This document shows, piece by piece, positions 3,659 to 27,889 of a DNA stretch of 64,000 nt. The stretch comes from a virus. The stretch's first letter is position 1. Each line of letters starts with the position of its first letter. Position numbers and translations under genes: made by a program. Location of the stretch: positions 1 to 64,000 of the IMG/VR virus record IMGVR_UViG_3300034122_002202; one strand, given 5' to 3'. The notes under the pieces were generated by a model that saw only the letters and a list, made by a program, of their open reading frames with translations, had not been told where the DNA came from and searched no databases.

Positions 3659-3759
3659 GTTACTCTCCTTGTTAGTCCAGCATCGTTAACTAAGGAACGC
3701 CCTTAGTTCACGCAAAGCCGTTTCCCTTAACTTAGTATTCGTTTCACACTTCAAATTAT

Positions 3760-4062
3760 TCAATAATTATTTCCAAAAACTTTATCTTTAATTGTATACA
3801 TACTGTAGTAAAGTTCATTGTTTGGTGCTGCTAAATTCAAATGTGTAGCACCAGTCTTAAAACTCCGTATGTGCTTATCATCAACAGGGTTATGTCCATC
3901 TACATAGATATATAGATCGGCACAATTAATAACGCCATGCTCATTCATTCTGCCTCTAAGTATATGTAGATATACTTTATCTATGTCTCTATAAGCATAA
4001 CCTTTGCCCACTTCTTGTCTTTTGATTCTCCATTGATTGCCCACCTGTTTAATTTCGATCAT
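3760..4062 (-). CDS. hypothetical phage protein
   Basis: AGGAGG RBS; TGA stop inside promoter motif. Confidence 0.75.
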   Translation of the reverse strand: MIEIKQVGNQWRIKRQEVGKGYAYRDIDKVYLHILRGRMNEHGVINCADLYIYVDGHNPVDDKHIRSFKTGATHLNLAAPNNELYYSMYTIKDKVFGNNY

Positions 4063-4261
4063 CGTATGTTCCTCCTTTCTCTGGATATCGCTCTGTTAAT
4101 TTAACCCCAATTACTCTGGCTATTTCTTCCAATACTTCAACCATATGACCAAACCCTTCTCTGCCAGAATCAGTCGAGCAATCCCACATTTTGTATTGCC
4201 CTTCTCTGCATGAATCATGTAGGTTTTGCAATAAGCTTTTAACTGTGTATATATTGTTCAT
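4049..4261 (-). CDS. hypothetical protein, paralogue of 4424-4672
   Basis: Shared LHDSC.E..Y..W...EGF..MV..L.EI motif. Confidence 0.75.
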   Translation of the reverse strand: MNNIYTVKSLLQNLHDSCREGQYKMWDCSTDSGREGFGHMVEVLEEIARVIGVKLTERYPEKGGTYDDRN

Positions 4262-4431
4262 TAGATTTCATCCTCAAGAGTGCTTAATCTTTCATAAAGC
4301 TTTTTTAATTCTTTTTTGTACGAAGAATCTAAATTTTTGTTGGTAACCGCCCAAAGTTCATAGCTTAAGCTATTAGTTATCATGGATATCTCATTTGGTG
4401 TTAGCTGTACACTTACAATTGAATCATTCAT
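4261..4431 (-). CDS. 56-aa helical hypothetical protein (MNDSIVSVQLTPNE...), not in ORF track
   Basis: AAGGAG RBS; TAATG coupling to next gene. Confidence 0.7.
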   Translation of the reverse strand: MNDSIVSVQLTPNEISMITNSLSYELWAVTNKNLDSSYKKELKKLYERLSTLEDEI

Positions 4432-4672
4432 TTGTTTCTACTCCTTCGCATTTGGAAAACGCAAATTCTTGTTCAAGTGCTTTAATTCTCAAGTTTAACA
4501 TATACATATGGATATATGTTTTTCCAAGTAATGTGACTATCTCTTGCAAATTTTTAACCATAGCAGAAAAGCCTTCTTTAGATGGTTCCCAAGATTCATA
4601 CTTGACCTCTGTGCATGAATCGTGCAAAGTCTGAATCATACCTTTAAGTTTTTCTTTAAATTGATCGTTCAT
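4424..4672 (-). CDS. hypothetical protein, paralogue of 4049-4261
   Basis: AAGGAG RBS; shared motif. Confidence 0.75.
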   Translation of the reverse strand: MNDQFKEKLKGMIQTLHDSCTEVKYESWEPSKEGFSAMVKNLQEIVTLLGKTYIHMYMLNLRIKALEQEFAFSKCEGVETNE

Positions 4673-4832
4673 GATTATTCTCCTTGTTAAATTTTGCTCT
4701 TAGTTCACTCAATGTTAAGGTTAGTTCTCTATTTTCTTGCCGAAAGATAAAAACGCCAAGCCCTCTTGCATCTAGCCTATAGCCAATTGATTCCATGTAC
4801 TGCAAGCACTCGTTAAGTGTTATGACTTTCAT
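4656..4832 (-). CDS. hypothetical phage protein
   Basis: Start moved to ATG 4832 after AAGGAG. Confidence 0.7.
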   Translation of the reverse strand: MKVITLNECLQYMESIGYRLDARGLGVFIFRQENRELTLTLSELRAKFNKENNHERSI

Positions 4833-5127
4833 GTTTGCTCTCCTTGTAATTTTGAACTTTGTAGTAATTTTCATTTACATAAGGAAGATCATCCTCTGTA
4901 TCAATCAACATTACGCAATCTGAAAATGGATTATATGCGTAGTCACCACACTTTATTTTTCCATAGTTTATCTTAAAGATATTCTTTTGATCAAGGACTG
5001 TGAGCAATCCTTTATAATTCTCTGCTGTCCACTTATCGTTGCCTAATTTTTCTTTAAGGGTAAACTTTTCCGCTATGCTGTCATTATCAACACGAACAAC
5101 ATCAACGCCACTTGCAAACTTACTCAT
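4813..5127 (-). CDS. hypothetical protein, possible SH3-like barrel
   Basis: AGGAG RBS; similar to 916-1158. Confidence 0.75.
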   Translation of the reverse strand: MSKFASGVDVVRVDNDSIAEKFTLKEKLGNDKWTAENYKGLLTVLDQKNIFKINYGKIKCGDYAYNPFSDCVMLIDTEDDLPYVNENYYKVQNYKESKHESHNT

Positions 5128-5129
5128 GT

Positions 5130-5492
5130 TTATTCTCCTATGTAATCCATATCTAATAATTTCATAACGCCATAAGTATGAACATTCTCTTCGCCACCAT
5201 CGTGGACAAACTCAATTTTTACTCTTACATATATGCCACCATTTTTATGAATAAGCTTTCGCCCACTTATATAGATATTGGTAGCTATTTCTGTAGTACC
5301 GAATGTGTAGCCAGTTGGCAGATAGAAGTCTGCTTTATCCCAGTCACTAGACTTCAAGCACTCTCCGAATTTCCAACCATCAGCGTGAACATAATAGCCA
5401 ACCTTGGCTTCAACCTTCCATCCATTGATCACTTTAAACTTCGGACAATCCTTTGGATTAAGTGCAATGCTCATTCTTTTTTTCATTTCCAT
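5130..5492 (-). CDS. hypothetical phage protein
   Basis: Follows promoter 5524-5551; AAGGAG near start. Confidence 0.75.
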   Translation of the reverse strand: MEMKKRMSIALNPKDCPKFKVINGWKVEAKVGYYVHADGWKFGECLKSSDWDKADFYLPTGYTFGTTEIATNIYISGRKLIHKNGGIYVRVKIEFVHDGGEENVHTYGVMKLLDMDYIGE

Positions 5493-5544
5493 CTCCTTGG
5501 TTAAGTTTAATCTCCATACTTAGTTATTCGTACAAACTCAATTT

Positions 5545-5769
5545 TTATTCAACTTTTTTTTCTTGAATATTTCCTAAATTTTCAATGTCAAAAGTTGGGT
5601 TAGGCAAGAACCTAAATTGCCCACTCCTAAAGTGACGAAGCTTTCCATCTACTTCAGAGACTATGGCGAATACATCATTTGAAAATGCCCCGCCATCTCG
5701 AACATATACAAGCAATCCATACCCAAGATTTGTTTCTACTGGCATTGGATTTCTAAATTCGTACAACAT
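5545..5769 (-). CDS. hypothetical phage protein
   Basis: AAGGAG RBS; stop inside promoter motif. Confidence 0.8.
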   Translation of the reverse strand: MLYEFRNPMPVETNLGYGLLVYVRDGGAFSNDVFAIVSEVDGKLRHFRSGQFRFLPNPTFDIENLGNIQEKKVE

Positions 5770-5782
5770 TTAATCTCCTTAG

Positions 5783-6208
5783 TTATGGAATATATTTTTG
5801 CATGATTGCATATTTACAATTATAGAACTTTCCATCATGTACATAAACTCGATCACTATAGTGCCAGTTCTTAAGGTCTTTTGAATCTGTATCGTTTAAG
5901 AAAGGAATATGCGGGAATGATCTTTTAATAATTGCAATCTTATTATCTTCCTTCTCGTTCCTGCCTTGCACATATACAAATATGCTTTTGCAAGTAATTA
6001 CATATTGATATGAGTATGTGTAAGGATAATTCGGAACTATTGGATCAAGTGTCTTAACTTCTTTACATGATTCAATACCTACAAGCTTAATGTAGACATC
6101 TTCCATATCTACCCAATCCGTTCTTGTTAGTCCATCCTTTTTCAAGGTTGTAATCTTATATCTATATGTGTTACTTATACCGCTATATTCTTTTGTGAAT
6201 GTAATCAT
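5783..6208 (-). CDS. hypothetical phage protein
   Basis: AAGGAG RBS. Confidence 0.75.
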   Translation of the reverse strand: MITFTKEYSGISNTYRYKITTLKKDGLTRTDWVDMEDVYIKLVGIESCKEVKTLDPIVPNYPYTYSYQYVITCKSIFVYVQGRNEKEDNKIAIIKRSFPHIPFLNDTDSKDLKNWHYSDRVYVHDGKFYNCKYAIMQKYIP

Positions 6209-6220
6209 GTTTGATTCTCC

Positions 6221-6688
6221 TTAAATACAAATTGGTTCAATTGAAGACTTACAGCTAATAGAAGACGATGTATAGAACAGTTCTTTGCCAGAAGAGAAGA
6301 TATTTAAGTTCTCAGCTTTGTCCATGTTTGTACCATCATGACCAGCCCAGTTCGGGGTTACTCTAGGATTGTATGACAACTTCATGTGTGTTTTTGCCAC
6401 AACTTTATTTATATGGTTAATGTTTGCTCTTCCACCAGCAGTATCATTTCTGTAGATAACTAGGTTCTCACACTCTACCCATGCACACACAGTCTTATTT
6501 GCCCCGCATTTGATCTTTGTAGCTGTAGCCACATGATTGACCAACTTGGCATTAATCATCTGTATACACACAGTAGAAGGGTCGCAATAGAATGGCTTGC
6601 CACTTGGCTTCTTTGGTGAAGCATCACCAGTAATCTGCCACTTCATGTAGTTCTCGCCCTTAGAAAGATGAAATCTTACCTTATACAT
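6221..6688 (-). CDS. hypothetical phage protein
   Basis: AAGGAGG RBS, 155 aa. Confidence 0.8.
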   Translation of the reverse strand: MYKVRFHLSKGENYMKWQITGDASPKKPSGKPFYCDPSTVCIQMINAKLVNHVATATKIKCGANKTVCAWVECENLVIYRNDTAGGRANINHINKVVAKTHMKLSYNPRVTPNWAGHDGTNMDKAENLNIFSSGKELFYTSSSISCKSSIEPICI

Positions 6689-6698
6689 ATCGACCTCC

Positions 6699-7019
6699 TT
6701 ATTTAATCAGACTTGAATCAACTAATGGATAACAATATTCGCCCAAATGAGCATCTAAAACATCAGTAAAACCACCATGTGTAACTCTATAGATATTCTC
6801 ATAGCCAGCATAGCTAATGAAATTAACAGGTCTGTCTTTAAACGCCCTCTTTAATGCTGCTACTGTTTTGTTATATGTTCTTGGCTTGCATTCATCACCC
6901 TTAAGATTCCATGATGGTTTCCACCAATATTCAATCTGGTAGACAAGTTCTTGCTTGCCCTCAATGTTTAACTCTAGGTAGTTTCTAATCCCACTAAGTT
7001 TGTATACATAAGCACCCAT
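6699..7019 (-). CDS. hypothetical phage protein
   Basis: Start moved to ATG 7019 after AAGGAG; follows promoter 7064-7091. Confidence 0.75.
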   Translation of the reverse strand: MGAYVYKLSGIRNYLELNIEGKQELVYQIEYWWKPSWNLKGDECKPRTYNKTVAALKRAFKDRPVNFISYAGYENIYRVTHGGFTDVLDAHLGEYCYPLVDSSLIK

Positions 7020-7120
7020 ATCAATCTCCTTTTGTTGTAGTTGTCTTTCCTTGCCATACTGTATTATTCGTACCAAAACCAATTTTATTCAATTTATTTT
7101 AAATATTTTTTCATACTGTG

Positions 7121-7333
7121 CTACGGTTTAATTGCACCAAATGCGTTTTCTACCCCCTCAAAGCTAAACTCTACTGTTTTATGCCCATTTAATGACATTA
7201 TTTTCACTCCATTTTTAGTGACTATGACCAAAGAACTACCCTTGATCTTCCACACCCACACTTCCTCATTAGGCAAATTAGGGTTGTTAACAGACACTAA
7301 AAAGTTGTTAGGTACTAAACTTGTTTCTTGCAT
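7121..7333 (-). CDS. hypothetical phage protein
   Basis: ATG 7333 after GGGGG; protein-like composition. Confidence 0.6.
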   Translation of the reverse strand: MQETSLVPNNFLVSVNNPNLPNEEVWVWKIKGSSLVIVTKNGVKIMSLNGHKTVEFSFEGVENAFGAIKP

Positions 7334-7543
7334 TTTTCCCCCATATTTATGCACTTTTTGACTGTTTATAATAACCAAAATTATTAATATTATCCTTACT
7401 AATATACATAGGGCAGAGAGGCTTTTTTACTATAGCGTATTAGGTGAACTAACATGGTATAAGAAAGTGGCTTCCACGCAACAAGATGTATAGTTTTGTA
7501 TACTTTGACATAAGTCCTTTGATACCATATGTTTACGGCTGAA

Positions 7544-7714
7544 TTAATCCCTCCAGAGGCATAATCTAACGAGGTTTTTGTCTTCTGGAGACACGCCAGC
7601 ATCGTGGAGAATCTTCTTGAGTCGAAGGATTTCTGTGGCTAAGACACCGATATCTAGCTCATTAATCGGGTGTTTTTTCTCTAGTTTTTGTTGATACTTT
7701 ATCGATAGTCTCAT
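7544..7714 (-). CDS. 56-aa hypothetical protein (MRLSIKYQQK...), not in ORF track
   Basis: AGGAG RBS 8 nt upstream of ATG. Confidence 0.65.
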   Translation of the reverse strand: MRLSIKYQQKLEKKHPINELDIGVLATEILRLKKILHDAGVSPEDKNLVRLCLWRD

Positions 7715-7880
7715 TTTCTATACTCCTAATAGGTAAAAAGCTCATATTCCTGCGGAAAAACACACATTTTGTGTCCATAGTGACCACCAAGGTCAAGAAG
7801 GGTTAAAAAAGGCTTAAAAAGGTGCGAATTTGTGACGATTTGCCACTCAAAAACACCATAAAGCTTATTTTTTGTCCAAA

Positions 7881-7910
7881 TGTATAGTTTTGTATAGTTT
7901 TGTATACTTT
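7881..7910. repeat. 10-bp tandem repeat TGTATA(G/C)TTT x3; two more units at 7487-7507
   Basis: Read directly. Confidence 0.8.
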
Positions 7911-8045
7911 TGAAACTTCTTTCCTTCCATACCTCATTATTCGTAATAGGTTCATATTTATTCAAATAAAAATTAAAAATATTCGTTTGAATAAAAATCG
8001 ATTTTTCACGAATACTATAATAGAAGCGTGAGGGTGACCGCCACA

Positions 8046-8091
8046 AACCCGCCTAGATGCAAGTGCTGATAGGGATCGGGGATGCGGTACG
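8046..8091 (+). ncRNA. candidate structured element A1 (hairpin + GGATNGGGGATGCGG)
   Basis: Downstream of the only plus-facing promoter (7988-8015); inverted homologue of 10704-10755; no ORF. Confidence 0.45.
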
Positions 8092-8113
8092 ACCACAAAA
8101 AAAAAGATTTTTA

Positions 8114-8160
8114 GAGCCATACCTTGGCGAACCCGCTTAATGTCGCTAAGACAAAGCAGG
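8114..8160 (-). ncRNA. candidate structured element B1 (hairpin + AAGGTATGG)
   Basis: Downstream of promoter 8201-8228; homologous to B2-B6. Confidence 0.4.
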
Positions 8161-8368
8161 AAGATCATTTCTCAAGTCGAATCGTATTGGCTATACTTTA
8201 TTATTCGTATTAGAACGAAAAATATTCAAAAGAAAAAAGAAAAAAACGCAGAGTGGAGTTAAGGGATCTCCACCCTGCCTGAGTCCTGCCAGCGAGAGGT
8301 TTGCACCAGCAGGATTGTATTAATAAGGGGATAAGCTGCCCAGTTCTTACCCCCCCATCCAAACCATC

Positions 8369-9502
8369 TTAGGCGAACATAAGTTCTTTGCCCAAGATAG
8401 AGTGAACATCCTTGGTAGTCAAGGCATTAGCTTTGTTTCTCAGGCCGATGAACTCGGATTCTGAATAGCTAGCCAAAGCACCACCAACTTCGTTAAGCTT
8501 CTCCCAAGAGGCTTCACCCATCTTTTGGCTTCCTCTCGTAAGAGAGTTGACCATACCAAAGAGAGTCTTGGCGTAGAATGGAGTTTCTTGGCGTTCAATT
8601 GACCAACCATCTTGAACAGCATCGATCTCTGCCTTAGAGAACTTGTAGGTTTGAGCTACAGAAGCAAAGAGTGGAGTCATCGAAGCACCTTCTCCGAAGA
8701 CCATCTTCTTTGTACCCAACAACTTTTCAATCATAACTGGTATGGATTGAATGTGCTTGGCAATAGAAGACTGTATCTGCCTAGACAAGATATCAAGATC
8801 AACCTTACCTCGATGCACTACGCTAACATCGTCATGTCGTACCCATCCAATCATGCCGTTAGTGCAGATTGTACGGAACACGCCAGCAGAAATGTCCAAG
8901 CGGTGCGTACCGATTTCGCTGTTCTTAATTTTAATCAAGCCACCATAGTCGCTATCATCGTCAGACTTAAGGCTAGCAGGAAGCACAACTGAGAAGTTGA
9001 TGAAGTCATCACCAGACTTATCACACGCCACCGCCTGACCGCATTCTTGTGGCAAGAACTGCTTAGTCTGGTCTAAGACCCAATTGTTATCGATAACTGC
9101 ATACCTATCTGACAAGAAAGCCCTACAGCTATCATCCTGATCATTAAAGCGGAACAACATCTCCTTGCCAAAGTCCTCTTGGAAGCTAATGTCTACCAAG
9201 TCCTTAAGGATAGCTTGGTGCTTGACATTACCAGAGTTATATAACTTGTTTAAGGTGAAACTCCCCCACTTTGTCTTACTAGCCAATTGACTAAGGAAAT
9301 GCTTAGTAGGCTTGTATAGCTTATTAGCTCGCTTGTCGAGAATATGAAACTTCTCGTCTGCGATAACAGCTTTGACCCTTGGATCTTCGCCACCTACGGT
9401 GCATAGTGCATCGTGATAGTGATCTTTGTTTTCGTTATAGCGAGCGATAACGCCAGCGTAAGCACCACCAGTAAAACCACGGACAGATCTAACAGCATTC
9501 AT
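8369..9502 (-). CDS. DUF932-family phage/plasmid protein
   Basis: RAFLSDRY and NSEIG....ISAGVFRTICTNGMI...H.G motifs typical of DUF932. Confidence 0.75.
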   Translation of the reverse strand: MNAVRSVRGFTGGAYAGVIARYNENKDHYHDALCTVGGEDPRVKAVIADEKFHILDKRANKLYKPTKHFLSQLASKTKWGSFTLNKLYNSGNVKHQAILKDLVDISFQEDFGKEMLFRFNDQDDSCRAFLSDRYAVIDNNWVLDQTKQFLPQECGQAVACDKSGDDFINFSVVLPASLKSDDDSDYGGLIKIKNSEIGTHRLDISAGVFRTICTNGMIGWVRHDDVSVVHRGKVDLDILSRQIQSSIAKHIQSIPVMIEKLLGTKKMVFGEGASMTPLFASVAQTYKFSKAEIDAVQDGWSIERQETPFYAKTLFGMVNSLTRGSQKMGEASWEKLNEVGGALASYSESEFIGLRNKANALTTKDVHSILGKELMFA

Positions 9503-9587
9503 AATAAACTCCCTGTGACTGTGTCACTATTAGTTAAAAATTTAAAACCTCTTACTACTACATTATTCGTACAAACACGAATTTTAT

Positions 9588-9773
9588 TCAACTACATTTT
9601 AAAAATCTTGGTTTTTTAGTTACAAGATTTCCATTCTCCCAAGCTCTACCTTCTGGAATTACTTGCCAGTCTTGGCCATCCACTGTAAATGTACCGCCAA
9701 ATACTGACCATGTTCCCTCATCTTTGGATTCCTGCCAAAGCCTTAACAACTCAACTTTAGTTTCTTCGTTCAT
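9588..9773 (-). CDS. hypothetical phage protein
   Basis: GGGAG RBS; ATGA coupling; stop inside promoter motif. Confidence 0.7.
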   Translation of the reverse strand: MNEETKVELLRLWQESKDEGTWSVFGGTFTVDGQDWQVIPEGRAWENGNLVTKKPRFLKCS

Positions 9774-10126
9774 TCTGTACTCCCTATTTCATAGTTATCG
9801 CCCCAATGAACATACCCATCTTTCTTGAGCATATGGAAGACTTCAGCGTAATAGATATTATGCCAGTTGAAATCCATAGCCCCACAAGCTTCGATATACT
9901 CTTCGTAAAATTCGGTCATATCTATGTAATCATAGACCGCATCGTAAATGGTATTCTGTAGAACCTCATTATCGCTATCAATTTTGCCAAGTACTTCCAA
10001 ACCATATCTCAGAGCCAATCTACCTCCGAAATGCTCAGCAAGCAGGAATAAATCGCTTTCTGGTGGCTTCTCGTAAGGTTTATCCTTGATCTCTGGCAGA
10101 CTTCCTAGCTTATCGTAACTTCTCAT
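9770..10126 (-). CDS. acidic hypothetical phage protein
   Basis: AAGGAG RBS. Confidence 0.75.
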   Translation of the reverse strand: MRSYDKLGSLPEIKDKPYEKPPESDLFLLAEHFGGRLALRYGLEVLGKIDSDNEVLQNTIYDAVYDYIDMTEFYEEYIEACGAMDFNWHNIYYAEVFHMLKKDGYVHWGDNYEIGSTE

Positions 10127-10137
10127 AGCTACTCTCC

Positions 10138-10404
10138 TTAGTTAGTAAAAACAAATAACGCATCATCTCCAACCCAACTGCCAACCATATCGCCTTCCCA
10201 CTTCAACTTCTCTGCGAAAAGCCTTGCAGCGTTTGCAAAGTTTTCCTTATATTCCAACTCGTAATCCCAACCAATGGTGAGGTTAGGTTGACGATTTTGC
10301 ATTTTACCGTTACCCAATCTGCACTTAAGGCGTTTGCCCTTTGTATCGGTAATAGGTAGAACCTTAACGAAAATAGTAGCACCACCAACAAACTTAATAG
10401 TCAT
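10138..10404 (-). CDS. hypothetical phage protein
   Basis: Start moved to ATG 10404 after AAGGAG; follows promoter. Confidence 0.75.
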   Translation of the reverse strand: MTIKFVGGATIFVKVLPITDTKGKRLKCRLGNGKMQNRQPNLTIGWDYELEYKENFANAARLFAEKLKWEGDMVGSWVGDDALFVFTN

Positions 10405-10455
10405 TTCACATTCTCCTTGTATATAGTTATTCGTTAGAACTCCAAATTTATTCAC

Positions 10456-10590
10456 TTACATTTCAAATTTTTTCACAAGTTCTCGATAAAGAAAATCGTA
10501 ATCTTCTTGCCTTATCTCATTAGCCATCAACTTATCATCCAATCTATCAACAGCTTTTTCAAATCTCACTTCTTTTTCTTGTTCGCTCAT
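10456..10590 (-). CDS. small acidic helical hypothetical protein
   Basis: ATG 10590 after AAGGAG; follows promoter 10629-10656. Confidence 0.7.
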   Translation of the reverse strand: MSEQEKEVRFEKAVDRLDDKLMANEIRQEDYDFLYRELVKKFEM

Positions 10591-10703
10591 CTCATCTCCT
10601 TTGTTTGTTGTGTCCTTCTCATACTTTATTATTCGTACGAACATGATTTTTATTCAAAAGATTTTTAAAATATTTTTTGTAATACTAAGTATTACCAGAA
10701 AAG

Positions 10704-10755
10704 CTATAGGCGTTCCGCATCCCCTATCCCTCTCCCGATACCAGAGAGGCGGGTT
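10704..10755 (-). ncRNA. candidate structured element A2
   Basis: Between promoters 10818-10845 and 10629-10656; no ORF; CCTCTC/GAGAGG stem then GATAGGGGATGCGGAACGCCTATAG. Confidence 0.45.
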
Positions 10756-10925
10756 GTTTTACATCGGCCCTCCCGATTTTTTTCAAGTTTTAGATTCTTG
10801 TTTTCCTTTCTATACTATTATTCGTTTGAACTTGAAAATTATTCAAAAAAATCTTTTTATTTTATTGGTATAACAAAGTATAACCATTTTTGGCTTTGGT
10901 GGTATGGGTAATCCGCTTGCTATTC

Positions 10926-10971
10926 GGGCATTACTTCGGGAACTCCGGTGGTATCCATAGGACACCGCCAG
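10926..10971 (-). ncRNA. candidate structured element B2
   Basis: GGTGTCC-TAT-GGATACC hairpin; close homologue of B3. Confidence 0.4.
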
Positions 10972-11041
10972 ATTAAAATTTAACTTTTTTGTTCATTGGA
11001 TAAAAGTTATAAACCAATTTCGCAATCTTTTCAGATTTCTC

Positions 11042-11071
11042 TTGACAGGTTTTTAACCCCATCAGTATAAT
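11042..11071 (+). promoter_or_regulatory. consensus sigma70-type promoter, antisense to surrounding genes
   Basis: TTGACA (11042-11047)-N18-TATAAT (11066-11071). Confidence 0.55.
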
Positions 11072-11187
11072 TGTCTAGCAGAGGGATTTACTCTCACTTT
11101 TATTAAAAGCCTATCCTATCTCCAAATAGGTTAAAAATAATCTCCATCTGTAAGAGTTCTGTACTTGAGCAAAGATAAGAATAAATA

Positions 11188-11382
11188 CTATACATTATCA
11201 CATTCCTCCAATAAAAAGTATTCTGGTACTGGTTCAAGTTCTTGCTTACCAAAGTGAAGCTTAATCCATAATTCTTTGATGTCTGCTTCCTTATAGAAAT
11301 GACCATCTTGTTTATCTAAACTTAATCTAATCAAAGAATGTTCAATCAATCTTTTCTCTGCATTACTTACTTCAATAATCAT
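11188..11382 (-). CDS. small helical hypothetical protein
   Basis: Start moved to ATG 11382 after GGAGG. Confidence 0.7.
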   Translation of the reverse strand: MIIEVSNAEKRLIEHSLIRLSLDKQDGHFYKEADIKELWIKLHFGKQELEPVPEYFLLEECDNV

Positions 11383-11671
11383 TGATCTACCTCCATAAAT
11401 ATCTTTATAAACAAAACCATAGACACATTTAAAAGAAAGCTTGCTGCGATTAATTCCATTAAGCACCTTCCTTTATTAGTTTTAATTTTTCGCCCTGTCT
11501 GCCACCCTTGACAGACTTCTTTTTTGATTTGAATACCACCATGCCCCTTGGCGTTTCGCCCCTACGCTCGAAGGGCATATTTACTAATGTAAACCGAATA
11601 GTCCTGCTCATCGTACTTCTCCTTGTAAATTATTATTCGTACAAACACACAATTTATTCAAAACTTTTTTA

Positions 11672-12019
11672 CTAATCCCGATCATATCTACTTGGTTTAC
11701 GCATAGCATTGCCATGCTCATGAATGAAATCATCAATGCCTTGTGCTTCTTCGTTCTCAAACTCTCTATCTTCAAGCATTTTTGCTACTGCTTGACAACC
11801 ATCTAAGATCCTACAGTGTAAGTAGTTAGGATAAAGCCCAGTGTGACTATCTACATACCATCCCCATTCAAACTTTTCTTCCCATGATGTAACTTTGAAA
11901 GTATTCGACTTCGTGTCATAATCAACGCCCACATTATATTCCCTGCCATTAAGCAGGAGTGGTGGCATATGCTTGCGAAACTCGGCAAAATTCTCAACTT
12001 CGTGAATGATACTGGACAT
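11672..12019 (-). CDS. hypothetical phage protein
   Basis: ATG 12019 after GGAG; follows promoter. Confidence 0.75.
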   Translation of the reverse strand: MSSIIHEVENFAEFRKHMPPLLLNGREYNVGVDYDTKSNTFKVTSWEEKFEWGWYVDSHTGLYPNYLHCRILDGCQAVAKMLEDREFENEEAQGIDDFIHEHGNAMRKPSRYDRD

Positions 12020-12101
12020 TTTTCTTTCTCCGTTAGTGTTAGTTCTCATATCTTATTATTCGTACAAACTTACTTTTTATTCAAAAAAATCTTTTTTATT
12101 T

Positions 12102-12272
12102 TTACCACCCTTGGCACTCTTCTTGCCTATCTTGTATTACCTTGCAATACTCTTGAGCTTCCTCCAAAGATTTAAACTCTTCCTCAATTTCCTCAATTTC
12201 CATCGTTTCAACGATCCAGTGACCACCAGCATCGTAATTCGCTAAAGCCCAATCGTAAATTTCTTTCCCCAT
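12102..12272 (-). CDS. small acidic hypothetical phage protein
   Basis: ATG 12272 after AAGGA; follows promoter. Confidence 0.7.
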   Translation of the reverse strand: MGKEIYDWALANYDAGGHWIVETMEIEEIEEEFKSLEEAQEYCKVIQDRQEECQGW

Positions 12273-12395
12273 CGTTCTTTCCTTTTCGTTAGTGTTGTTG
12301 TCTTCCATACTCTATTATTCGTTTGAACTCTAAAATTATTCAAAAGTTTTTTAAATTATTTTTAATTATACTAAGTTATACCTAATTTTATAAGT

Positions 12396-12439
12396 CCAGC
12401 CTCCCCCCATCCCCCCTAGATATTTCTCTAGGAGGCAAG
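12396..12439 (-). ncRNA. candidate structured element A3
   Basis: CCTAGA/TCTAGG stem then GGATGGGGGGAGGC; between tandem promoters. Confidence 0.45.
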
Positions 12440-12576
12440 CTTATTTTGTATCGATCCTTCTCGATATTATATTATTCGTTTGAAACGCAAAATTATTCAA
12501 AAAAAAATTAAAATAATTGGTATAACAAAGTATAACTTTGCAAGCTTTTTGGCAGGGCAAAGACGCTTGCTAGCAA

Positions 12577-12621
12577 GGCATACCATCAGGAACCTCGGTG
12601 GTGTCCATAGGACACACCAAG
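12577..12621 (-). ncRNA. candidate structured element B3
   Basis: TGTCC-TAT-GGACA hairpin then GGTATGCC. Confidence 0.4.
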
Positions 12622-12734
12622 CTTTTTTTTAAAGACTACTTTTTTCGTTTTCGGTATCTCACCGTGGTTTGCCCCTTAAAGTAGTAAACAGACCTATCGT
12701 TTAAACTTAATACATTTTTCTTTCCCTCTTGTTG

Positions 12735-12980
12735 TTATATTATATTATTCGTACTAGGCCCGATATTATTCAAAAAATAATCCCAATTCTTTTTAAAATC
12801 TGTATGCAGATATCGCATACAAGTTTGGGCAATGTTACGATATCCAACAATTTTGGCAACAACCTTTACTCTTGCCATATTGCATACCTTGCAATAGTGG
12901 CGTTGAAATATGTTTCCATCATCATCGGTATCTTGCCCTAGATTTTGCCACTTACCATGATTGCAATTCTTAACCTTCAT
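12735..12980 (-). CDS. small putative Zn-binding protein (CxH...CxxC)
   Basis: AAGGA RBS; CNH and CKVC. Confidence 0.55.
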   Translation of the reverse strand: MKVKNCNHGKWQNLGQDTDDDGNIFQRHYCKVCNMARVKVVAKIVGYRNIAQTCMRYLHTDFKKNWDYFLNNIGPSTNNII

Positions 12981-13016
12981 TTTACTTTCCTTTTCTTTAT
13001 GGTCACAATATGTGAC

Positions 13017-13700
13017 CTAGTGATAGATATAGGCCACATTGTTGACATTCTTATCCCAACATTTACGGCAATCGTTGCAGTTTACCTTGCTTGCACCATT
13101 GAAAGCTTCAAGGCTTGCAGGGCAAATATTCTCATGACGATCATCGGCATTAACTGGTGTTCTTATTGCAGTGCTTGTGGGCAATCCTAGCCCCTTGCTA
13201 GGCACTTGATCGACCATGTACATACTTGGCCTAACTGTAAAATTCTTGGCAAATTCGCCATGTATAGCTAAGTATTCCCGAACCATGCCATGTTCTTTAG
13301 TTGGTAACCAGAATTTAACTTCTGGCAGGGCAAGAGCAATCTCATTCATTGCCACTAACATATCTAGACTTTGAACATCGCCACTTGTAAACCACCTAAA
13401 GTATGCATTAGACTTATCTTTCATGTGCTTATATTTCTTGGCTAGTGCTTTAATAAAAGCTTGCTTCCAAGACTCCAAGTCTTCTAGTTGACCTATCCTA
13501 ACATCATCGGCTTTTTTCTTGTTGCCAAAAAGGTATCTACCTTTAAGGGCATAACATCCCTCACATATACTACCCTTAACATCGACTAGCTTGCTTCCAG
13601 TCTTGCATTGTTTAGCTGGTAAATCCCAACTAATCCAAGGCATTTTTTCAGTTTGTGAGAAATTTATTTCTAATGGCTTGATAACTTCTAAACTTATCAT
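13017..13700 (-). CDS. GP88-family (radical-SAM-like, Cys-cluster) phage protein
   Basis: CKTG..L......CEGCYA, FRWFTSGD, FWLPT, CPA...CNDCRKCW motifs. Confidence 0.75.
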   Translation of the reverse strand: MISLEVIKPLEINFSQTEKMPWISWDLPAKQCKTGSKLVDVKGSICEGCYALKGRYLFGNKKKADDVRIGQLEDLESWKQAFIKALAKKYKHMKDKSNAYFRWFTSGDVQSLDMLVAMNEIALALPEVKFWLPTKEHGMVREYLAIHGEFAKNFTVRPSMYMVDQVPSKGLGLPTSTAIRTPVNADDRHENICPASLEAFNGASKVNCNDCRKCWDKNVNNVAYIYH

Positions 13701-13763
13701 CTTACTTTCCTTGTGTTAGTGTTACTTGCTATACTCTATTATTCGTTTCAACTTTCAAATTAT

Positions 13764-13958
13764 TCAAAACTTTTCACAATTATTTTCAAATTCTTCAAGT
13801 AGTGCTTGCTCACATTCAAACTTATCGATCATCCTTGAAGTTAATTCTTCAAGATCAAATTCTTCAATTTCTTGACAAGTAGTTGGCATAAGCACTTCCC
13901 AGTTGGGTTCAATATTTTCATCATCGATCACAATTTCAAAATCAGAATCATCATTCAT
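13764..13958 (-). CDS. very acidic small protein
   Basis: AAGGA RBS; about one third D/E; stop inside promoter motif. Confidence 0.7.
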   Translation of the reverse strand: MNDDSDFEIVIDDENIEPNWEVLMPTTCQEIEEFDLEELTSRMIDKFECEQALLEEFENNCEKF

Positions 13959-14090
13959 TTTACTTTTCCTTTTCTCTAGTGTTAGTTATCCCTTATACTC
14001 TATTATTCGTTTTAACTTACAATTTATTCAAATAAAAATAAAATTATTTTAAATATATTTAGTAATACTAAATTATACCAAATTAAATTA

Positions 14091-14136
14091 GGGCAGGCTC
14101 CCCCCATCCTCCCTTAGTTGTTCACTAGGGGAGAAG
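14091..14136 (-). ncRNA. candidate structured element A4
   Basis: CTCCCCTAGT/ACTAAGGGAG stem then GATGGGGGGAGCC; between tandem promoters. Confidence 0.45.
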
Positions 14137-14280
14137 ATTTTTATTAGGTTAATCTCCAACCTCTCTATAGTATTATTCGTTTAAACTGTAAAATTATTCA
14201 AATAAAAATAAAAATATTTTGAGATAATTAGTATAACAAAGTAATACCAATTTTTGCTTTGATAGTAGTGGTAATACAAA

Positions 14281-14323
14281 GTAATACCTCGGTAAGCCCG
14301 CTAGTCTTGGTAAGACTTGCAGG
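14281..14323 (-). ncRNA. candidate structured element B4
   Basis: CCTGCAAGTCTT-ACC-AAGACTAGCGGG then GAGGTATT. Confidence 0.4.
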
Positions 14324-14493
14324 TTTTTTTTTCTTGGCCTATCGGCCGGGCTTTCTCTTCGAGAAATCCATCGAGGGGCTTTCGCCCCCCTTCTTTCTTA
14401 TTTGTTCATATAGGCTATCGCCTGATATAAACAGCTTGAATACACAATCAGGCCAAACAAGAGTAGCATATTCATTTGTTCAATGGACATGGC

Positions 14494-14700
14494 TTATGCC
14501 CCCCTCTTGGCTAATTCAGCCTTGTAAACACTAATCTGATCATAGTATTTATTAGGGTTGATGTTAAGCTTGATACATTCCCGACAATCGTCAATACTAT
14601 ATCGCAAGGATGCTACTGTCATGGCCTTGGCCTTTTTAGCTTCCACCAACCAATTGCAAACAAAGGGATCATAACTATTATTCATCTTACTACTCTCCAT
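14494..14700 (-). CDS. hypothetical phage protein
   Basis: Follows promoter 14730-14757; true start may be the second Met after GGAG. Confidence 0.7.
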   Translation of the reverse strand: MESSKMNNSYDPFVCNWLVEAKKAKAMTVASLRYSIDDCRECIKLNINPNKYYDQISVYKAELAKRGA

Positions 14701-14778
14701 GTTAATGGTTAAACTCTCTTGCTATACTATTATTCGTAACAATCACAACTTTATTCAAAAAAAACTTTTTTTATTTTA

Positions 14779-15030
14779 TTAGTCGTGGATTACTCCATCG
14801 ACTATATACCTTAGACTATAAGCCGATATCGTTTTTTCTCCATGATGGTTACCTTCATTGTATGATACTAATATATAGTATCCATTCTTAGACTTAGCTA
14901 TTCGCTCTAGTGTACCGAACCTAAATCCATCTACTTTACTATCGGCTTGACTATACTTATTAATGCTTATTCGCTTACCGATATTTTCAGAAAAAACGCC
15001 CGATACAGTACCATTTTCAATCTTAATCAT
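14779..15030 (-). CDS. hypothetical phage protein
   Basis: AAGGA RBS; follows promoter. Confidence 0.75.
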   Translation of the reverse strand: MIKIENGTVSGVFSENIGKRISINKYSQADSKVDGFRFGTLERIAKSKNGYYILVSYNEGNHHGEKTISAYSLRYIVDGVIHD

Positions 15031-15181
15031 CTTATCTATCCTTTACTTTTTATCCTTAAGGTTTAACATTGTGTTTCCCTTATGCTATATTATTCGTTTA
15101 AACTTAGAATTTATTCAAAACAATTTCAAAATATTTTAAAAATCTATTAAGATAAACATATCCAATTAGACTATGGGGTAT

Positions 15182-15225
15182 GGGCATACCTTCCCCAAGC
15201 CGACTATCTTGGTTAAGACAGTGGG
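15182..15225 (-). ncRNA. candidate structured element B5
   Basis: ACTGTCTT-AACC-AAGATAGT hairpin then GGGAAGGTATGCCC. Confidence 0.4.
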
Positions 15226-15251
15226 TTCTCATTTGGTCTTGGCCTCTTGGC

Positions 15252-15428
15252 CTATATCTTTTTTTCGTATTCATAAAACTTTTCGTACTCTCTAATAATT
15301 TCTTCTTGCTTAACAGGAAATCCATATGCAGCCCTTAATACATGGGTTTTTCTACGATCCGAAAAGTGATTATGAAACGCACAAAGACCAATGCCAGCAG
15401 CCAAAACTCGCATATTAAATTCTTCCAT
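15252..15428 (-). CDS. 58-aa hypothetical protein (MEEFNMRVLAAG...), not in ORF track
   Basis: Follows promoter 15474-15501 with GGGG RBS. Confidence 0.55.
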   Translation of the reverse strand: MEEFNMRVLAAGIGLCAFHNHFSDRRKTHVLRAAYGFPVKQEEIIREYEKFYEYEKKI

Positions 15429-15622
15429 TTTACCATCCCCTTTTTTCTAGTGTTGTTTCCCTTACCTATCATATTATTCGTTGTAACTTAGAATTTATTC
15501 AAAATAAAATAAAAATAAATAAAAGAATTTTGGTATTACCTTGTTATACCTAATTGGCATTGATAGTATAGGTAAGACAATATTAAGATAAAAATATCCA
15601 ATTCAAATCAGCCGATCTTAGC

Positions 15623-15670
15623 CTATAGGCGTACCTTCCCTAAGCCCAGTGACTTTGGTAAGACACTAGG
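15623..15670 (-). ncRNA. candidate structured element B6
   Basis: CCTAGTG...CACTGGG stem then GGGAAGGTACGCCTATAG. Confidence 0.4.
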
Positions 15671-15682
15671 TTATTTTAAATA

Positions 15683-15706
15683 CCCCCTAGCTATTCGACT
15701 AGGGGG
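15683..15706 (-). terminator. probable intrinsic terminator after sigma gene
   Basis: CCCCCTAG/CTAGGGGG stem followed by TATTT on minus strand. Confidence 0.55.
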
Positions 15707-15720
15707 CTTGACTACCTTGC

Positions 15721-16221
15721 CTAGCTTGCCATCTTTGCGATGGCCTTGGCATGTAAACCGAAAGCACTCCCTTGGCTAATATCCAGTTTGCGAGCAATTT
15801 CATCGAAGTTATATCCCTTCGATCTTAAGGCCAAGATATTGTGTTCTGTAAAGTCGATAATACCAGCATCGTAAGCATCTCGAAGATGGAAAGTTAAAAC
15901 TTCCATTGTATTAGTAGGTCGGCCTTGCAATTCAATATTATTACCATTTTCAGAATCTTCGAACTTGGTAATAGTAACTGTTTTACCTTGACGCTTATTT
16001 GTATTCAAACGCCTATTTTCGTCAATAAGAATATTCTTAAAACAAGGGTATAAAATAGTATTAAACTTATTACCAAGACTAGGGTTGAAAAGTTCATTGG
16101 CCTTGGTAACGGACATAATAGCTAAATCTTCAAAATCGGTATAACCAAGGCGTTTGGCCTTACGGCTTAACTTGTCGATGCTAGCATAAAATAATTCTAC
16201 TGAAATTTTCAATTCGCTCAT
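15721..16221 (-). CDS. phage sigma70-family RNA polymerase sigma factor (regions 2 and 4)
   Basis: DFEDL...A.ELFNPSLGNKFNT...KNILIDENRR (region 2); GYNFDEIARKLDISQGSA HTH (region 4). Confidence 0.8.
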   Translation of the reverse strand: MSELKISVELFYASIDKLSRKAKRLGYTDFEDLAIMSVTKANELFNPSLGNKFNTILYPCFKNILIDENRRLNTNKRQGKTVTITKFEDSENGNNIELQGRPTNTMEVLTFHLRDAYDAGIIDFTEHNILALRSKGYNFDEIARKLDISQGSAFGLHAKAIAKMAS

Positions 16222-16364
16222 GATACTTTTCCTTTTCCTTGTTTGCTATTTGTTGATTCTAAAAAGTAGAATCTAAAAAACAAATAACTTACTACCACTA
16301 TCCTATGGTATTATTCGACATAATCAAGAAAATATTTTAATAAAAATAAAAATAAATAAAGAAT

Positions 16365-16447
16365 TGTCATTATGGCATATGTCGTGTTTTCCGTCTGTCT
16401 ATATGGCAGTCTAGGCACGCCAAAATGGCAGGCATGTCAAAATGGCA
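16365..16447. promoter_or_regulatory. four 13-bp inverted-repeat operators TGYCA-N3-TGGCA in the divergent control region
   Basis: 16365-16377, 16396-16408, 16418-16430, 16435-16447. Confidence 0.6.
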
Positions 16448-16653
16448 GGGGTTTATTCAAAATGTTAAGATAGGTAGAATGGGTAGTTTGAAGCGGGGGG
16501 CGTTGCCACTTACCAAGCCACACTTTCCCCAATGTACTACCAAAGCCATACTTGTTCGCCCCCTAAATGCTTAATCTCACTTGCAATGCGATTGAAACAA
16601 TAGTATCATACATAAGATGTACTAATACAATTTTCGCAGAAAATGGTGATGCC

Positions 16654-27859: not shown

Positions 27860-27889
27860 GCAGTCCTCTTTACGAGGACTGTTTTTTTT
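27860..27889 (+). terminator. intrinsic terminator after MCP
   Basis: CAGTCCTC/GAGGACTG stem + T8. Confidence 0.85.

What the first reader, a model, noticed from the sequence alone, without database searches (positions are those of the whole stretch)
8046..15670. Family of about 10 dispersed non-coding hairpin elements with strand-specific G-U pairing (candidate phage small-RNA or ssDNA-structure system)
Seen: ten intergenic 45-50 nt elements (A: 8046 on plus, 10704, 12396, 14091; B: 8114, 10926, 12577, 14281, 15182, 15623; a partial copy near 7771). Read in the sense of the local promoter, they share an A-rich lead, a 9-12 bp hairpin and a purine-rich tail. The tail is GGAT(N)GGGG(N)A.GC in A and TTNNNNA(A/T)GGTAYGCC in B; A2 and B6 both end ACGCCTATAG. 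Stem sequences differ between copies while pairing is kept. In all six B copies the non-Watson-Crick positions include G-U pairs on the minus strand, which would be A-C mismatches on plus, so the minus strand is probably the one that folds. All four A copies lie directly downstream of a promoter that has no ORF after it. Inference: a multicopy small-RNA family made very early, for example decoys, antitoxin or CRISPR-repeat mimics, or antitermination or processing sites. I do not recognise it as a known family.
Basis: partly seen in the sequence, partly recalled or inferred. Interest (0 to 1): 0.82.

Follow-up and report, generated by a model that had tools for sequence, protein, structure and literature searches.

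The report
Hairpin-tail RNA modules in lake phage
An uncultured lake phage and its relatives carry about ten copies of a small folded RNA element, some apparently made as short non-coding RNAs and others sitting at the ends of groups of early genes; selection clearly keeps the fold, but what it does is still unknown.

Summary
The "partial copy" near 7771 does not fold.

Covariance models built from relatives show strong covariation:
- A family: 97% of cells paired, and 14 of 14 pairs show compensatory changes.
- B family: 94% of cells paired, 7 of 11 pairs.
- Slid controls: 27-53% paired.

G-U pairs outnumber A-C by 36:3 in A and 32:2 in B. All 19 distinct B hairpins are more stable on the transcribed strand, so the sense strand folds.

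Model hits cluster at 8-16 kb of the 141.8-kb genome and recur at syntenic places in 14 related lake-phage contigs. Rfam has no match.

A and B seem to share one module: an A-rich lead, a hairpin, and a purine-rich tail ending GGWAYGCC(Y)AUAG. A adds a 5' hairpin with an SD-like loop.

Every module is followed by a new promoter or meets a convergent module. Six promoters drive no ORF.

My best reading (0.42) is that these are RNA boundary modules of one promoter regulon, and that six of them close short non-coding RNAs. They are not ordinary terminators, because no U-tract follows them. Discrete transcripts, the factor involved and the host are all unshown.

The parts
7987..8016 (+). Only plus-strand copy of the promoter motif; it drives A1
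   Evidence: Regex scan of the genome; sequence read
8024..8100 (+). A1: small 5' hairpin with a UGAGGG loop, second hairpin (8048-8080), tail GGGAUCGGGGAUGCGGUACGACC
   Evidence: Motif, fold, alignment with A1-type copies in L003, L004, L026, L040, L006 and L022. Not found by model R1.
8110..8166 (-). B1: hairpin 8132-8160 with a 2-nt bulge, tail UUCGCCAAGGUAUGGC. Driven by ORF-less promoter 8200-8229 and convergent with A1.
   Evidence: R3 gives only E 0.2, but homologues L003:15577-15636 and L004:15771-15830 score E 2e-6 and 3e-6.
10704..10812 (-). A2 unit, from the predicted start after promoter 10817-10846: hairpin 1 at 10763-10777, hairpin 2 at 10729-10749, tail 10704-10728
   Evidence: R1 E 1.2e-6; fold
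10927..10977 (-). B3: hairpin 10944-10972, tail UUCCCGAAGUAAUGCC
   Evidence: 72% identical to B2 over 75 nt (D9); fold. Not found by R3.
12386..12468 (-). A3 unit after promoter 12471-12500: hairpin 1 at 12449-12466, hairpin 2 at 12412-12435, tail GAUGGGGGGAGGCUGGAC
   Evidence: R1 E 4.9e-25; covariation; conserved across both clades
12573..12627 (-). B2: hairpin 12591-12624 with one bulged C, tail UUCCUGAUGGUAUGCC. Lies about 115 nt after ORF-less promoter 12744-12773.
   Evidence: R3 E 5.7e-4; compensatory lower stem in L026
14083..14168 (-). A4 unit after promoter 14172-14201: hairpin 1 at 14146-14162, hairpin 2 at 14107-14135, tail GAUGGGGGGAGCCUGCCC
   Evidence: R1 E 1.3e-7; fold
14280..14329 (-). 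B4: hairpin 14297-14323, tail CUUACCGAGGUAUUAC, preceded by a run of nine A
   Evidence: R3 E 1.1e-11; sequence
15177..15231 (-). B5: hairpin 15200-15225, tail CUUGGGGAAGGUAUGCC
   Evidence: R3 E 1.4e-17
15622..15676 (-). B6: hairpin 15645-15670, tail CUUAGGGAAGGUACGCCUAUAGG. It follows a G+C-rich hairpin at 15682-15707 that lies after the sigma-like gene.
   Evidence: R3 E 1.8e-20; fold

Best explanation
A and B are two forms of one family of RNA modules. They are encoded in the leftward transcription units that start at the 24-copy promoter motif TTGAATAA-N14-ACGAATAAT.

The module has three parts:
- an A-rich lead;
- a 9-12 bp hairpin, whose base is usually C-G, C-G, U-G;
- a conserved, mostly single-stranded purine-rich tail, CUU/GAU, then a G-rich stretch, then GGWAYGCC(Y)AUAG.

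I read the module as the 3'-boundary element of these units. The hairpin would stop or protect the 3' end. The conserved tail would be the recognition site for a still unknown host or phage factor, acting in termination or in cleavage.

Four copies (B3-B6) close protein-coding units. Six copies (A1-A4, B1, B2) close units with no ORF, which would therefore be short non-coding RNAs of roughly 80-190 nt. In A these RNAs carry an extra 5' hairpin with an SD-like GAGG/GGA loop and an A-rich linker, which are probably the parts that act on a target.

Shown: folding of the sense strand, covariation, conservation, positions, and absence of a U-tract.
Inferred: transcript ends, the factor, and any action in trans.
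For: 1. Structure.
- A family: 97.2% of 290 cells are paired and 14 of 14 pairs show changes on both sides. Slid controls give 31-53%, and 0 of 500 shuffles reach the observed values.
- B family: 94.2% of 207 cells are paired and 7 of 11 pairs show double changes. Slid controls give 27-51%.

2. The sense strand folds.
- G-U versus A-C is 36:3 in A and 32:2 in B.
- All 19 distinct B hairpins are more stable on the sense strand, by a mean of 4.1 kcal/mol.
- The third pair of the B stem is U-G in 16 of 19 distinct rows.

3. One module.
- A B model aligns hairpin 2 plus tail of A2 to B (E 0.2, weak).
- The tails line up by eye, and A2 and B6 share ACGCCUAUAG.

4. Position.
- Of 10 modules, 8 are followed by a new promoter and 2 face each other.
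- Six of the 24 promoter copies have no ORF before the next promoter.

5. Conservation.
- Copies occur at syntenic places in L001-L006, L022, L026, L038, L040 and L041, and in L276, L294 and L174.
- Between the two clades, the hairpins, the linker and the tails stay alignable while the operator-like boxes and promoter spacers diverge.

6. The copies are confined to the promoter-rich region, both in this genome and in five related records.
Against: - Only (C/G)UU follows the hairpins, so the rules for intrinsic termination are not met. The same genome does use canonical hairpin-plus-U-tract terminators, for example at 8248-8278 and near 27882 and 54728. It is unclear why it would need another signal.
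- A hairpin that only protects a 3' end does not explain why the tail downstream of it is conserved.
- Contigs from RNA libraries run across B4 and promoter 14172-14201 into A4 (14126-14496), and across the canonical terminator and promoter 8200-8229 towards B1 (8155-8698). That indicates either read-through or DNA carried over into the libraries.
- No factor was identified. None of the small proteins tested in the region matches a known family with an RNA-binding role.
- The alignments used for pair counts were fitted to the models' structures, which favours those structures.
- The relatives are few and closely related (two clades), so cells are not independent events.
- A1 and B3 were not detected by the models.
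Confidence: 0.42

Rival explanations
1. Protein or ribosome sponge. The modules, above all the stand-alone A RNAs, act in trans. They present several exposed purine-rich motifs: GGA or GAGG in the loop of hairpin 1, and GGGAU(N)GGGG or GGAGG in the tail. These would titrate a host factor such as a CsrA/RsmA-type regulator, the 30S anti-SD, protein S1, or an RNA-sensing defence protein.
For: - A quarter of the promoter copies (6 of 24) make no protein.
- The single-stranded linker and tail of A3 are more conserved between clades than the stems, which covary.
- Each A RNA that R1 detects has 2-4 GGA triplets in predicted unpaired places (rows).
- Having several paralogues with the same exposed motifs but different stems is typical of sponge RNA families (own knowledge).
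Against: - No Rfam Csr/Rsm family matches at E up to 5.
- A1-type loops read UGAGGG, without GGA.
- The B tails CCAAGGUA, CCGAGGUA and UGAUGGUA lack GGA.
- GGA is expected often in any purine-rich stretch.
- The host is unknown, so it cannot be said whether CsrA is present.
- The RNAs lack the terminator hairpin with U-tail that known sponges have.
Confidence: 0.2
2. Cis-acting processive antitermination, like the put RNAs of HK022. Polymerase that transcribes an A element right after its promoter becomes resistant to the terminators downstream, whereas polymerase from the gene-proximal promoter does not.
For: - All 4 A copies lie within about 5-45 nt of a predicted start.
- They consist of two covarying hairpins, and further downstream lie B modules and a canonical terminator.
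- The tandem layout promoter-A-promoter occurs three times.
Against: - Nearly every gene has its own promoter, so read-through is not obviously needed.
- The B-like half of A also occurs at the 3' ends of units, where antitermination makes no sense.
- The hairpins are separated by a 12-14 nt A-rich linker. In put they are said to be adjacent (recalled, not checked).
- No put model was available for comparison.
Confidence: 0.08
3. Terminators for the opposite direction, or two-way terminators. An A-run before the hairpin becomes hairpin plus T-run on the plus strand, which would stop antisense transcription entering the region.
For: - B2 and B4 pass a crude hairpin-plus-T-run test on the plus strand (12623 and 14324).
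- Most B copies in relatives have a lead of 6-10 A.
- A perfect sigma-70 consensus promoter points rightwards at 11042-11071.
Against: - All 19 distinct B hairpins are weaker on the plus strand.
- The conserved U-G at the third pair becomes a C-A mismatch next to the T-run, where stem strength matters most.
- B1 and B5 lack an A-run.
- This reading does not explain the conserved tail.
Confidence: 0.07
4. A function at the DNA level. Options are protein-binding palindromes, strand-specific single-stranded DNA hairpins (REP/IS200-like or N4-promoter-like), or origin transcripts whose G-rich RNA forms a stable R-loop primer next to the AT-rich stretch.
For: - G-T pairs are also tolerated in DNA hairpins.
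- The tail G6-AU-G6-AGG of A3 and A4 recalls G-rich primer-forming sequences (ColE1 RNA II, mitochondrial CSB II; recalled).
- Operator-like boxes and AT-rich DNA follow each module.
Against: - 10 of 10 copies are in the sense of local transcription, and the one inverted copy (A1) carries an inverted promoter.
- Double-stranded protein sites would not prefer G-T over A-C.
- No HUH or Y1 transposase, and no primase context, was seen among the proteins scanned (only part of the genome was scanned).
- The type I tails are much less G-rich.
Confidence: 0.08
5. Ordinary Rho-independent terminators on the sense strand, or mimics of CRISPR repeats or of type III antitoxin repeats.
For: Stable hairpins at the ends of units. 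The hairpin-plus-tail layout superficially resembles a CRISPR repeat.
Against: - At most 2-3 U follow the stems.
- The stems differ between copies within one genome, so they cannot all match one repeat.
- The copies are dispersed, not tandem.
- No CRISPR-DR or other Rfam family matches.
Confidence: 0.04

Closest known systems
Rho-independent terminators and 3'-terminal stabilising hairpins of phage early operons
   Same: Stable G+C-closed hairpin at the end of each transcription unit, on the RNA strand, followed by the next promoter
   Different: There is no U-tract. A conserved purine-rich tail of about 17-25 nt follows the hairpin. The module also occurs behind promoters that have no gene.
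RNase III processing sites of T7 and SP82 early RNA (recalled from the classical literature; the search gave only listings of later papers that cite them)
   Same: A family of similar hairpins with conserved flanks lying between early cistrons. After cutting, the hairpin protects the upstream RNA.
   Different: The stems here are only 9-12 bp with no lower stem, too short for RNase III by the usual rule of about 20 bp. Here each unit has its own promoter.
HK022 putL/putR antiterminator RNAs
   Same: Two hairpins transcribed directly after a promoter, present in more than one copy per genome, and acting without an ORF
   Different: No sequence comparison was possible. Here an A-rich linker separates the hairpins, and half of the element recurs at 3' ends.
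CsrB/RsmY/RsmZ-type sponge RNAs
   Same: Paralogous small RNAs with repeated exposed GGA- or SD-like motifs on variable stems
   Different: There is no Rfam match, no U-tailed terminator, and GGA is not present in every loop. The host and any CsrA are unknown.
[quoted passage not shown]
   Same: Putative small RNAs in the promoter-dense early region of a roughly 140-kb phage, function unknown
   Different: Those were found by RNA-seq and are not described there as a repeated structural family. No sequence relation was tested.

Membership tests
Intrinsic (Rho-independent) terminator | G+C-rich hairpin at the end of a transcription unit | tested here: met
   Hairpins of -6.5 to -15.7 kcal/mol, placed after units
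Intrinsic (Rho-independent) terminator | Run of U directly after the stem on the transcribed strand | tested here: not met
   The tails begin CUUAGGG, CUUGGGG, CUUACCG, GUUCCUG or GUUCGCC. Canonical examples exist elsewhere in the genome.
CsrB/Rsm-type sponge RNA | Match to a curated Csr/Rsm covariance model | tested here: not met
   Rfam search of 7000-16500 at E up to 5 gave 3 weak matches, none on A or B
CsrB/Rsm-type sponge RNA | Several GGA motifs in loops or single strands | tested here: inconclusive
   2-4 GGA per A RNA detected by R1. They are absent from the A1-type loops UGAGGG and from some B tails.
CsrB/Rsm-type sponge RNA | Host encodes CsrA/RsmA, and the RNA binds it | not testable with these tools
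   Host unknown
HK022 put-type antiterminator RNA | Two stem-loops transcribed just downstream of a promoter | tested here: met
   4 of 4 A copies
HK022 put-type antiterminator RNA | Makes polymerase read through downstream terminators in cis | not testable with these tools
   Needs transcription assays
CRISPR-repeat mimic (solitary repeat unit) | Copies keep the sequence of one host repeat, stem included | tested here: not met
   Stems differ between copies of one genome and covary. No CRISPR-DR family matches on A or B.
Type III antitoxin RNA (ToxI-like) | Tandem array of about 36-nt repeats next to a toxin gene | tested here: not met
   The copies lie about 70 to 2,600 nt apart, each beside its own promoter (element coordinates). 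No neighbouring protein matches a family.
RNase III early-RNA processing site (T7/SP82 type) | About two helical turns of double-stranded RNA | tested here: not met
   Stems are 9-12 bp and the flanks do not pair

The most novel reading that the evidence does not exclude
The module is a new kind of RNA 3'-end signal that needs no U-tract: a hairpin plus a conserved purine-rich tail read by a dedicated factor. It is tied to one phage promoter regulon. The phage uses it to make a family of at least six abundant small RNAs, whose SD-like or GGA-rich single strands soak up a host translation regulator or the ribosome's anti-SD during takeover.
Probability: 0.12. Interest if true: 0.8.

Novelty: new variant of a known kind. 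Interest (0 to 1): 0.55.

Why it matters
Phage non-coding RNAs are poorly charted, and almost none has a known function. This phage lineage devotes about a quarter of one promoter class to units without genes, and it marks its transcription units with a conserved hairpin-tail module that fits no described family and does not obey the rules for intrinsic terminators.

If the module is a factor-dependent end signal, or a decoy, it would add a new element to how phages organise or protect their first transcripts. It would also give a compact, testable RNA of about 50 nt. If it turns out to be only a stabilising hairpin, it is still a clean new covariation-supported family that could be added to RNA databases.

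Tried and rejected
Known families.
- ARAGORN found only tRNA-Met at 1418-1490.
- Rfam at gathering scores found only that tRNA.
- Rfam at E up to 5 found nothing on A or B.

Close phage relatives in GenBank.
- None by megablast.
- Only remote protein hits.

Host. The epimerase gene gave 42-46% matches across many phyla, which is uninformative.

Pseudoknot between the B loop UACC and the tail GGUA. Rejected: loops change (ACCA, AUCA, AACC, UAU) while the tail stays the same.

Long-range helix GCC/GGC around hairpin 2 of A3. Rejected: it is not kept in L006 and L026, which read AGCC.

Second hairpin in the B tail. Rejected: the pairings found (CUUAG/CUAAG, UGGGG/CCCCA, CUAUG/CAUAG) are not in register between copies.

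GGTAT as a repeated strand-specific word. Rejected: 11 versus 7 for its complement in 3,212 non-coding bases, which is no bias.

Targets inside the phage for the G-rich tail. The complement occurs only at the elements themselves and at three other places.

Small proteins of the region. Eleven of thirteen had no family. The remaining matches were PHROGs of unknown function or chance-level.

Metagenome scan for the type II tail. Only L174 is an A element and L198 is doubtful.

Viral scan for the B tail. It returned 65 stretches. R3 confirmed copies in L276, L294 and L174, plus one odd hit in L293.

RNA libraries.
- Only assembled contigs were on hand, at 90-99% likeness.
- They cannot show ends, strand or level, and DNA may be present in such libraries.
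- Two contigs of one study stop at 10918 and 10892, just past B3, and one stops at 14288 inside the B4 tail. These come from a single study and I do not count them as evidence.
- Parts without cover say nothing.

Literature. The searches gave no description of such a module. I read passages only of PMC9163698 and PMC9241854; the rest I saw as listings. Supplementary files were not opened.

Earlier notes of this scan were used as leads only.

Full report
Setting.

The window is the first 64 kb of a 141,809-base virus record. Its ends overlap by 127 bases, so the true ends are unknown. It has no close relative among deposited phages. The large terminase subunit (TerL) is only about 24% identical to those of Bacillus and Microcystis siphophages. 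DNA runs that hold the stretch are lake-water metagenomes. The host is unknown.

From about 16.3 kb leftwards all genes are on the minus strand and are small. Nearly every one is preceded by the same motif, TTGAATAA-N14-ACGAATAAT:
- 17 minus-strand copies in the window by a strict pattern;
- 24 in the genome by a looser one, 21 of them between 3.7 and 16.3 kb, and one on the plus strand at 7987-8016.

Pfam recognises only DUF932, GP88 and two sigma-like proteins in the region.

The observation.

A1-A4 each start a few to about 45 nt after a predicted start. Each has:
- hairpin 1, with a purine-rich loop;
- an A-rich linker;
- hairpin 2;
- a G-rich tail.

B1-B6 are a single 9-12 bp hairpin, usually after an A-run, followed by (C/G)UU, a few bases, and RRGGUAYGCC.

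Pairs of copies are visibly related: A3/A4 are 74% identical over 103 nt, B3/B2 72% over 75 nt, and B5/B6 78% over 49 nt. The 'partial copy' near 7771 shares a stretch with the 5' half of B2 but has no partner arm.

Relatives.

A search with the GP88 protein gave six related viral contigs, L001-L006. Five of them carry the same promoter family in the same order.

A scan for the hairpin 1 sequence gave 21 stretches:
- 9 are A elements, 4 of them in contigs already held;
- 12 are unrelated coding or G+C-rich DNA.

The new ones (L022, L026, L038, L040, L041) form a second clade with L006. That clade has a variant promoter and different operator-like boxes. Later scans added L276, L294 and L174.

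Structure tests.

A covariance model was built from six A3-type sequences with my two-hairpin structure. It found 30 matches at E up to 10 in 191,255 bases, 27 of them at E of 1e-5 or better. These include A3, A4 and A2 of the window but not A1.

On the resulting alignment (22 distinct rows):
- 97.2% of 290 cells pair, and all 14 pairs show changes on both sides;
- sliding the partners by 1-3 columns drops pairing to 31-53%;
- no shuffle of 500 reaches the observed values.

For B, a model was built from eight B5/B6-type sequences and rebuilt from its 20 best hits. On those 20 hits (19 distinct rows), 94.2% of 207 cells pair, 7 of 11 pairs show double changes, and slid controls give 27-51%. The rebuilt model finds B6, B5, B4 and B2 of the window, B1 only at E 0.2, and not B3.

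Caveats: these alignments are fitted to the models, and the sequences come from two clades only.

Which strand folds.

- In the A alignment I counted 246 Watson-Crick, 36 G-U, 3 A-C and 5 other cells.
- In the B alignment (28 distinct rows with E up to 0.03) I counted 255, 32, 2 and 13.
- All 19 distinct B hairpins fold more stably as sense than as antisense RNA, by a mean of 4.1 kcal/mol. For hairpin 2 of A, 11 of 13 do.
- The third pair from the base of the B stem is U-G in 16 of 19 rows.

Distribution.

In the whole genome both models hit only between 8 and 16 kb, apart from one weak B-like hit at 91538. In five related records the hits are likewise clustered within a few kb.

One family.

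- The first B model aligns hairpin 2 plus tail of A2 to B, weakly (E 0.2).
- By eye the tails correspond: GGG-CUU-AGGG-AAG-GUACGCCUAUAG in B6 against GGG-AU-AGGGGAUGCGGAACGCCUAUAG in A2.
- A1-type copies in the second clade lose the G-runs but keep GCGGUACGACUAU.

I therefore treat A as hairpin 1 plus linker plus a B-like module. This step is inference from weak alignment.

What it is not.

It matches no tRNA and no Rfam family, at gathering scores or at E up to 5.

It is not an ordinary terminator on the sense strand, because at most two or three U follow the stems. The genome does use canonical terminators, for example after the DUF932 gene at 8248-8278 and near 27882 and 54728.

On the plus strand the A-run makes B2 and B4 look like terminators. 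However, the conserved U-G would then be a C-A mismatch beside the T-run, and every hairpin is weaker on that strand.

It is not a CRISPR-repeat mimic or a tandem antitoxin. Stems differ between copies in one genome and the copies are dispersed.

It is not an RNase III site of the T7 type, because the helices are too short and the flanks do not pair.

What it most likely is.

The anatomy is regular. Each of the ten modules is followed either by a new promoter (8) or by a convergent module (A1 against B1). Three times the order is B, boxes, promoter, A, boxes, promoter, gene.

Six promoters (7987-8016 plus strand, 8200-8229, 10817-10846, 12471-12500, 12744-12773, 14172-14201) have no ORF before the next promoter. 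The only mechanical ORF over B1/A1 is not kept in L003.

Between the two clades the boxes and spacers diverge, while the hairpins covary and the linker and tails stay nearly constant.

The simplest reading is that the module marks the 3' boundary of the units of this promoter class. The hairpin would be a block or protector, and the tail a recognition site for an unknown factor. The six ORF-less units would then be short non-coding RNAs closed by the same module. I give this 0.42.

Other readings remain open: a trans-acting sponge (0.2), put-like antitermination, reverse-direction termination, and DNA-level roles. They are listed with their tests under rival explanations.

Expression.

Four RNA libraries from three lake or freshwater studies hold contigs 90-99% like parts of the region. 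Examples are 10918-11630, 10892-11679, 8155-8698 and 14126-14496. They show that relatives of this stretch are present in RNA libraries, and that some assembled pieces bridge a module and the next promoter. They cannot show ends, strand or abundance, and DNA carry-over is possible. Discrete small RNAs are therefore not shown.

Comparison and novelty.

The closest things known are:
- terminal hairpins of early operons;
- the processing-site families of T7 and SP82 early RNA (recalled);
- put RNAs;
- Csr/Rsm sponges;
- the unexplained small RNAs of the early terminal repeat of phage K (passages of PMC9241854).

The module fails the defining test of each family that could be tested. I found no description of it in four literature searches. 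Absence from that library is not proof, and supplements were closed. I rate it a new variant of a known kind: a phage cis-element and small-RNA family. Its structure is well supported and its mechanism is open.

Noticed in passing
window 11042-11095 (+): A perfect sigma-70 consensus promoter (TTGACA, 18 nt, TATAAT) points rightwards, antisense, inside the roughly 210-nt untranslated stretch between the gene ending at 11188 and B3. A small hairpin and a T-rich stretch follow it at 11081-11103. It could be a small antisense RNA.
   Followed up: no
window 8242-8365 (-): The 3' untranslated region of the DUF932 gene folds into three strong hairpins. The first carries another GGAUGGGGGGG and the last is a canonical terminator. 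It is conserved in L003, L004 and L026. There is a weak Rfam match to BjrC80, at 32 bits against a gathering score of 80.
   Followed up: partly
window 10869-10887, 10679-10696, 12361-12379, 12519-12537, 14061-14079, 14230-14248, 14270-14288, 15533-15551: Paired boxes GTWWWAC-N3-GTWWWAC lie between each A or B module and the AT-rich stretch of the next promoter. Some contain TGGTATAAT-like extended -10 words. In the L006/L026 clade the box after B2 is replaced by GGATAT(Y)TTTATCC. They are probably operator sites.
   Followed up: partly
window 3734-16339 (promoter family) and 15721-16221 (-): The 24-copy promoter can also be read as TGAATA-N16-CGAAT, the layout I recall for ECF-type sigma promoters. 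The neighbouring 166-aa protein has a sub-threshold ECF sigma match, 20.4 bits against 21.1. The regulon may therefore be read by a phage sigma rather than the host primary sigma.
   Followed up: no
window 12707-12715 (-): Two-codon mini-ORF (ATG TAT TAA) behind a good Shine-Dalgarno sequence, right after the ORF-less promoter 12744-12773 and upstream of B2.
   Followed up: no
window 14399-14491 (-): Unlisted 30-codon ORF for a hydrophobic peptide, overlapping the stop of the upstream gene (ATG at 14491), just before the hairpin cluster that precedes B4.
   Followed up: no
genome ends (G000 1-127 and 141683-141809): The 'direct terminal repeat' is a 127-base overlap, as expected from a circular assembly. 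A further promoter-like copy lies at the far right end, so the promoter-rich region continues across the junction.
   Followed up: partly
L293 3494-3540 (+): A single B-like hairpin plus tail (CCUGC...GCGGG, CUUUGCGGAGGUAUGCC) in an unrelated G+C-rich viral contig. It lies between two genes on the opposite strand. R3 gives E 3e-4, but the locus was pre-selected by the tail pattern.
   Followed up: partly
window 7880-7910: Three tandem copies of a 10-nt unit (TTGTATAGTT-like on the plus strand) in the leader after promoter 7936-7965, with one more at 7486-7506 (family D14).
   Followed up: no
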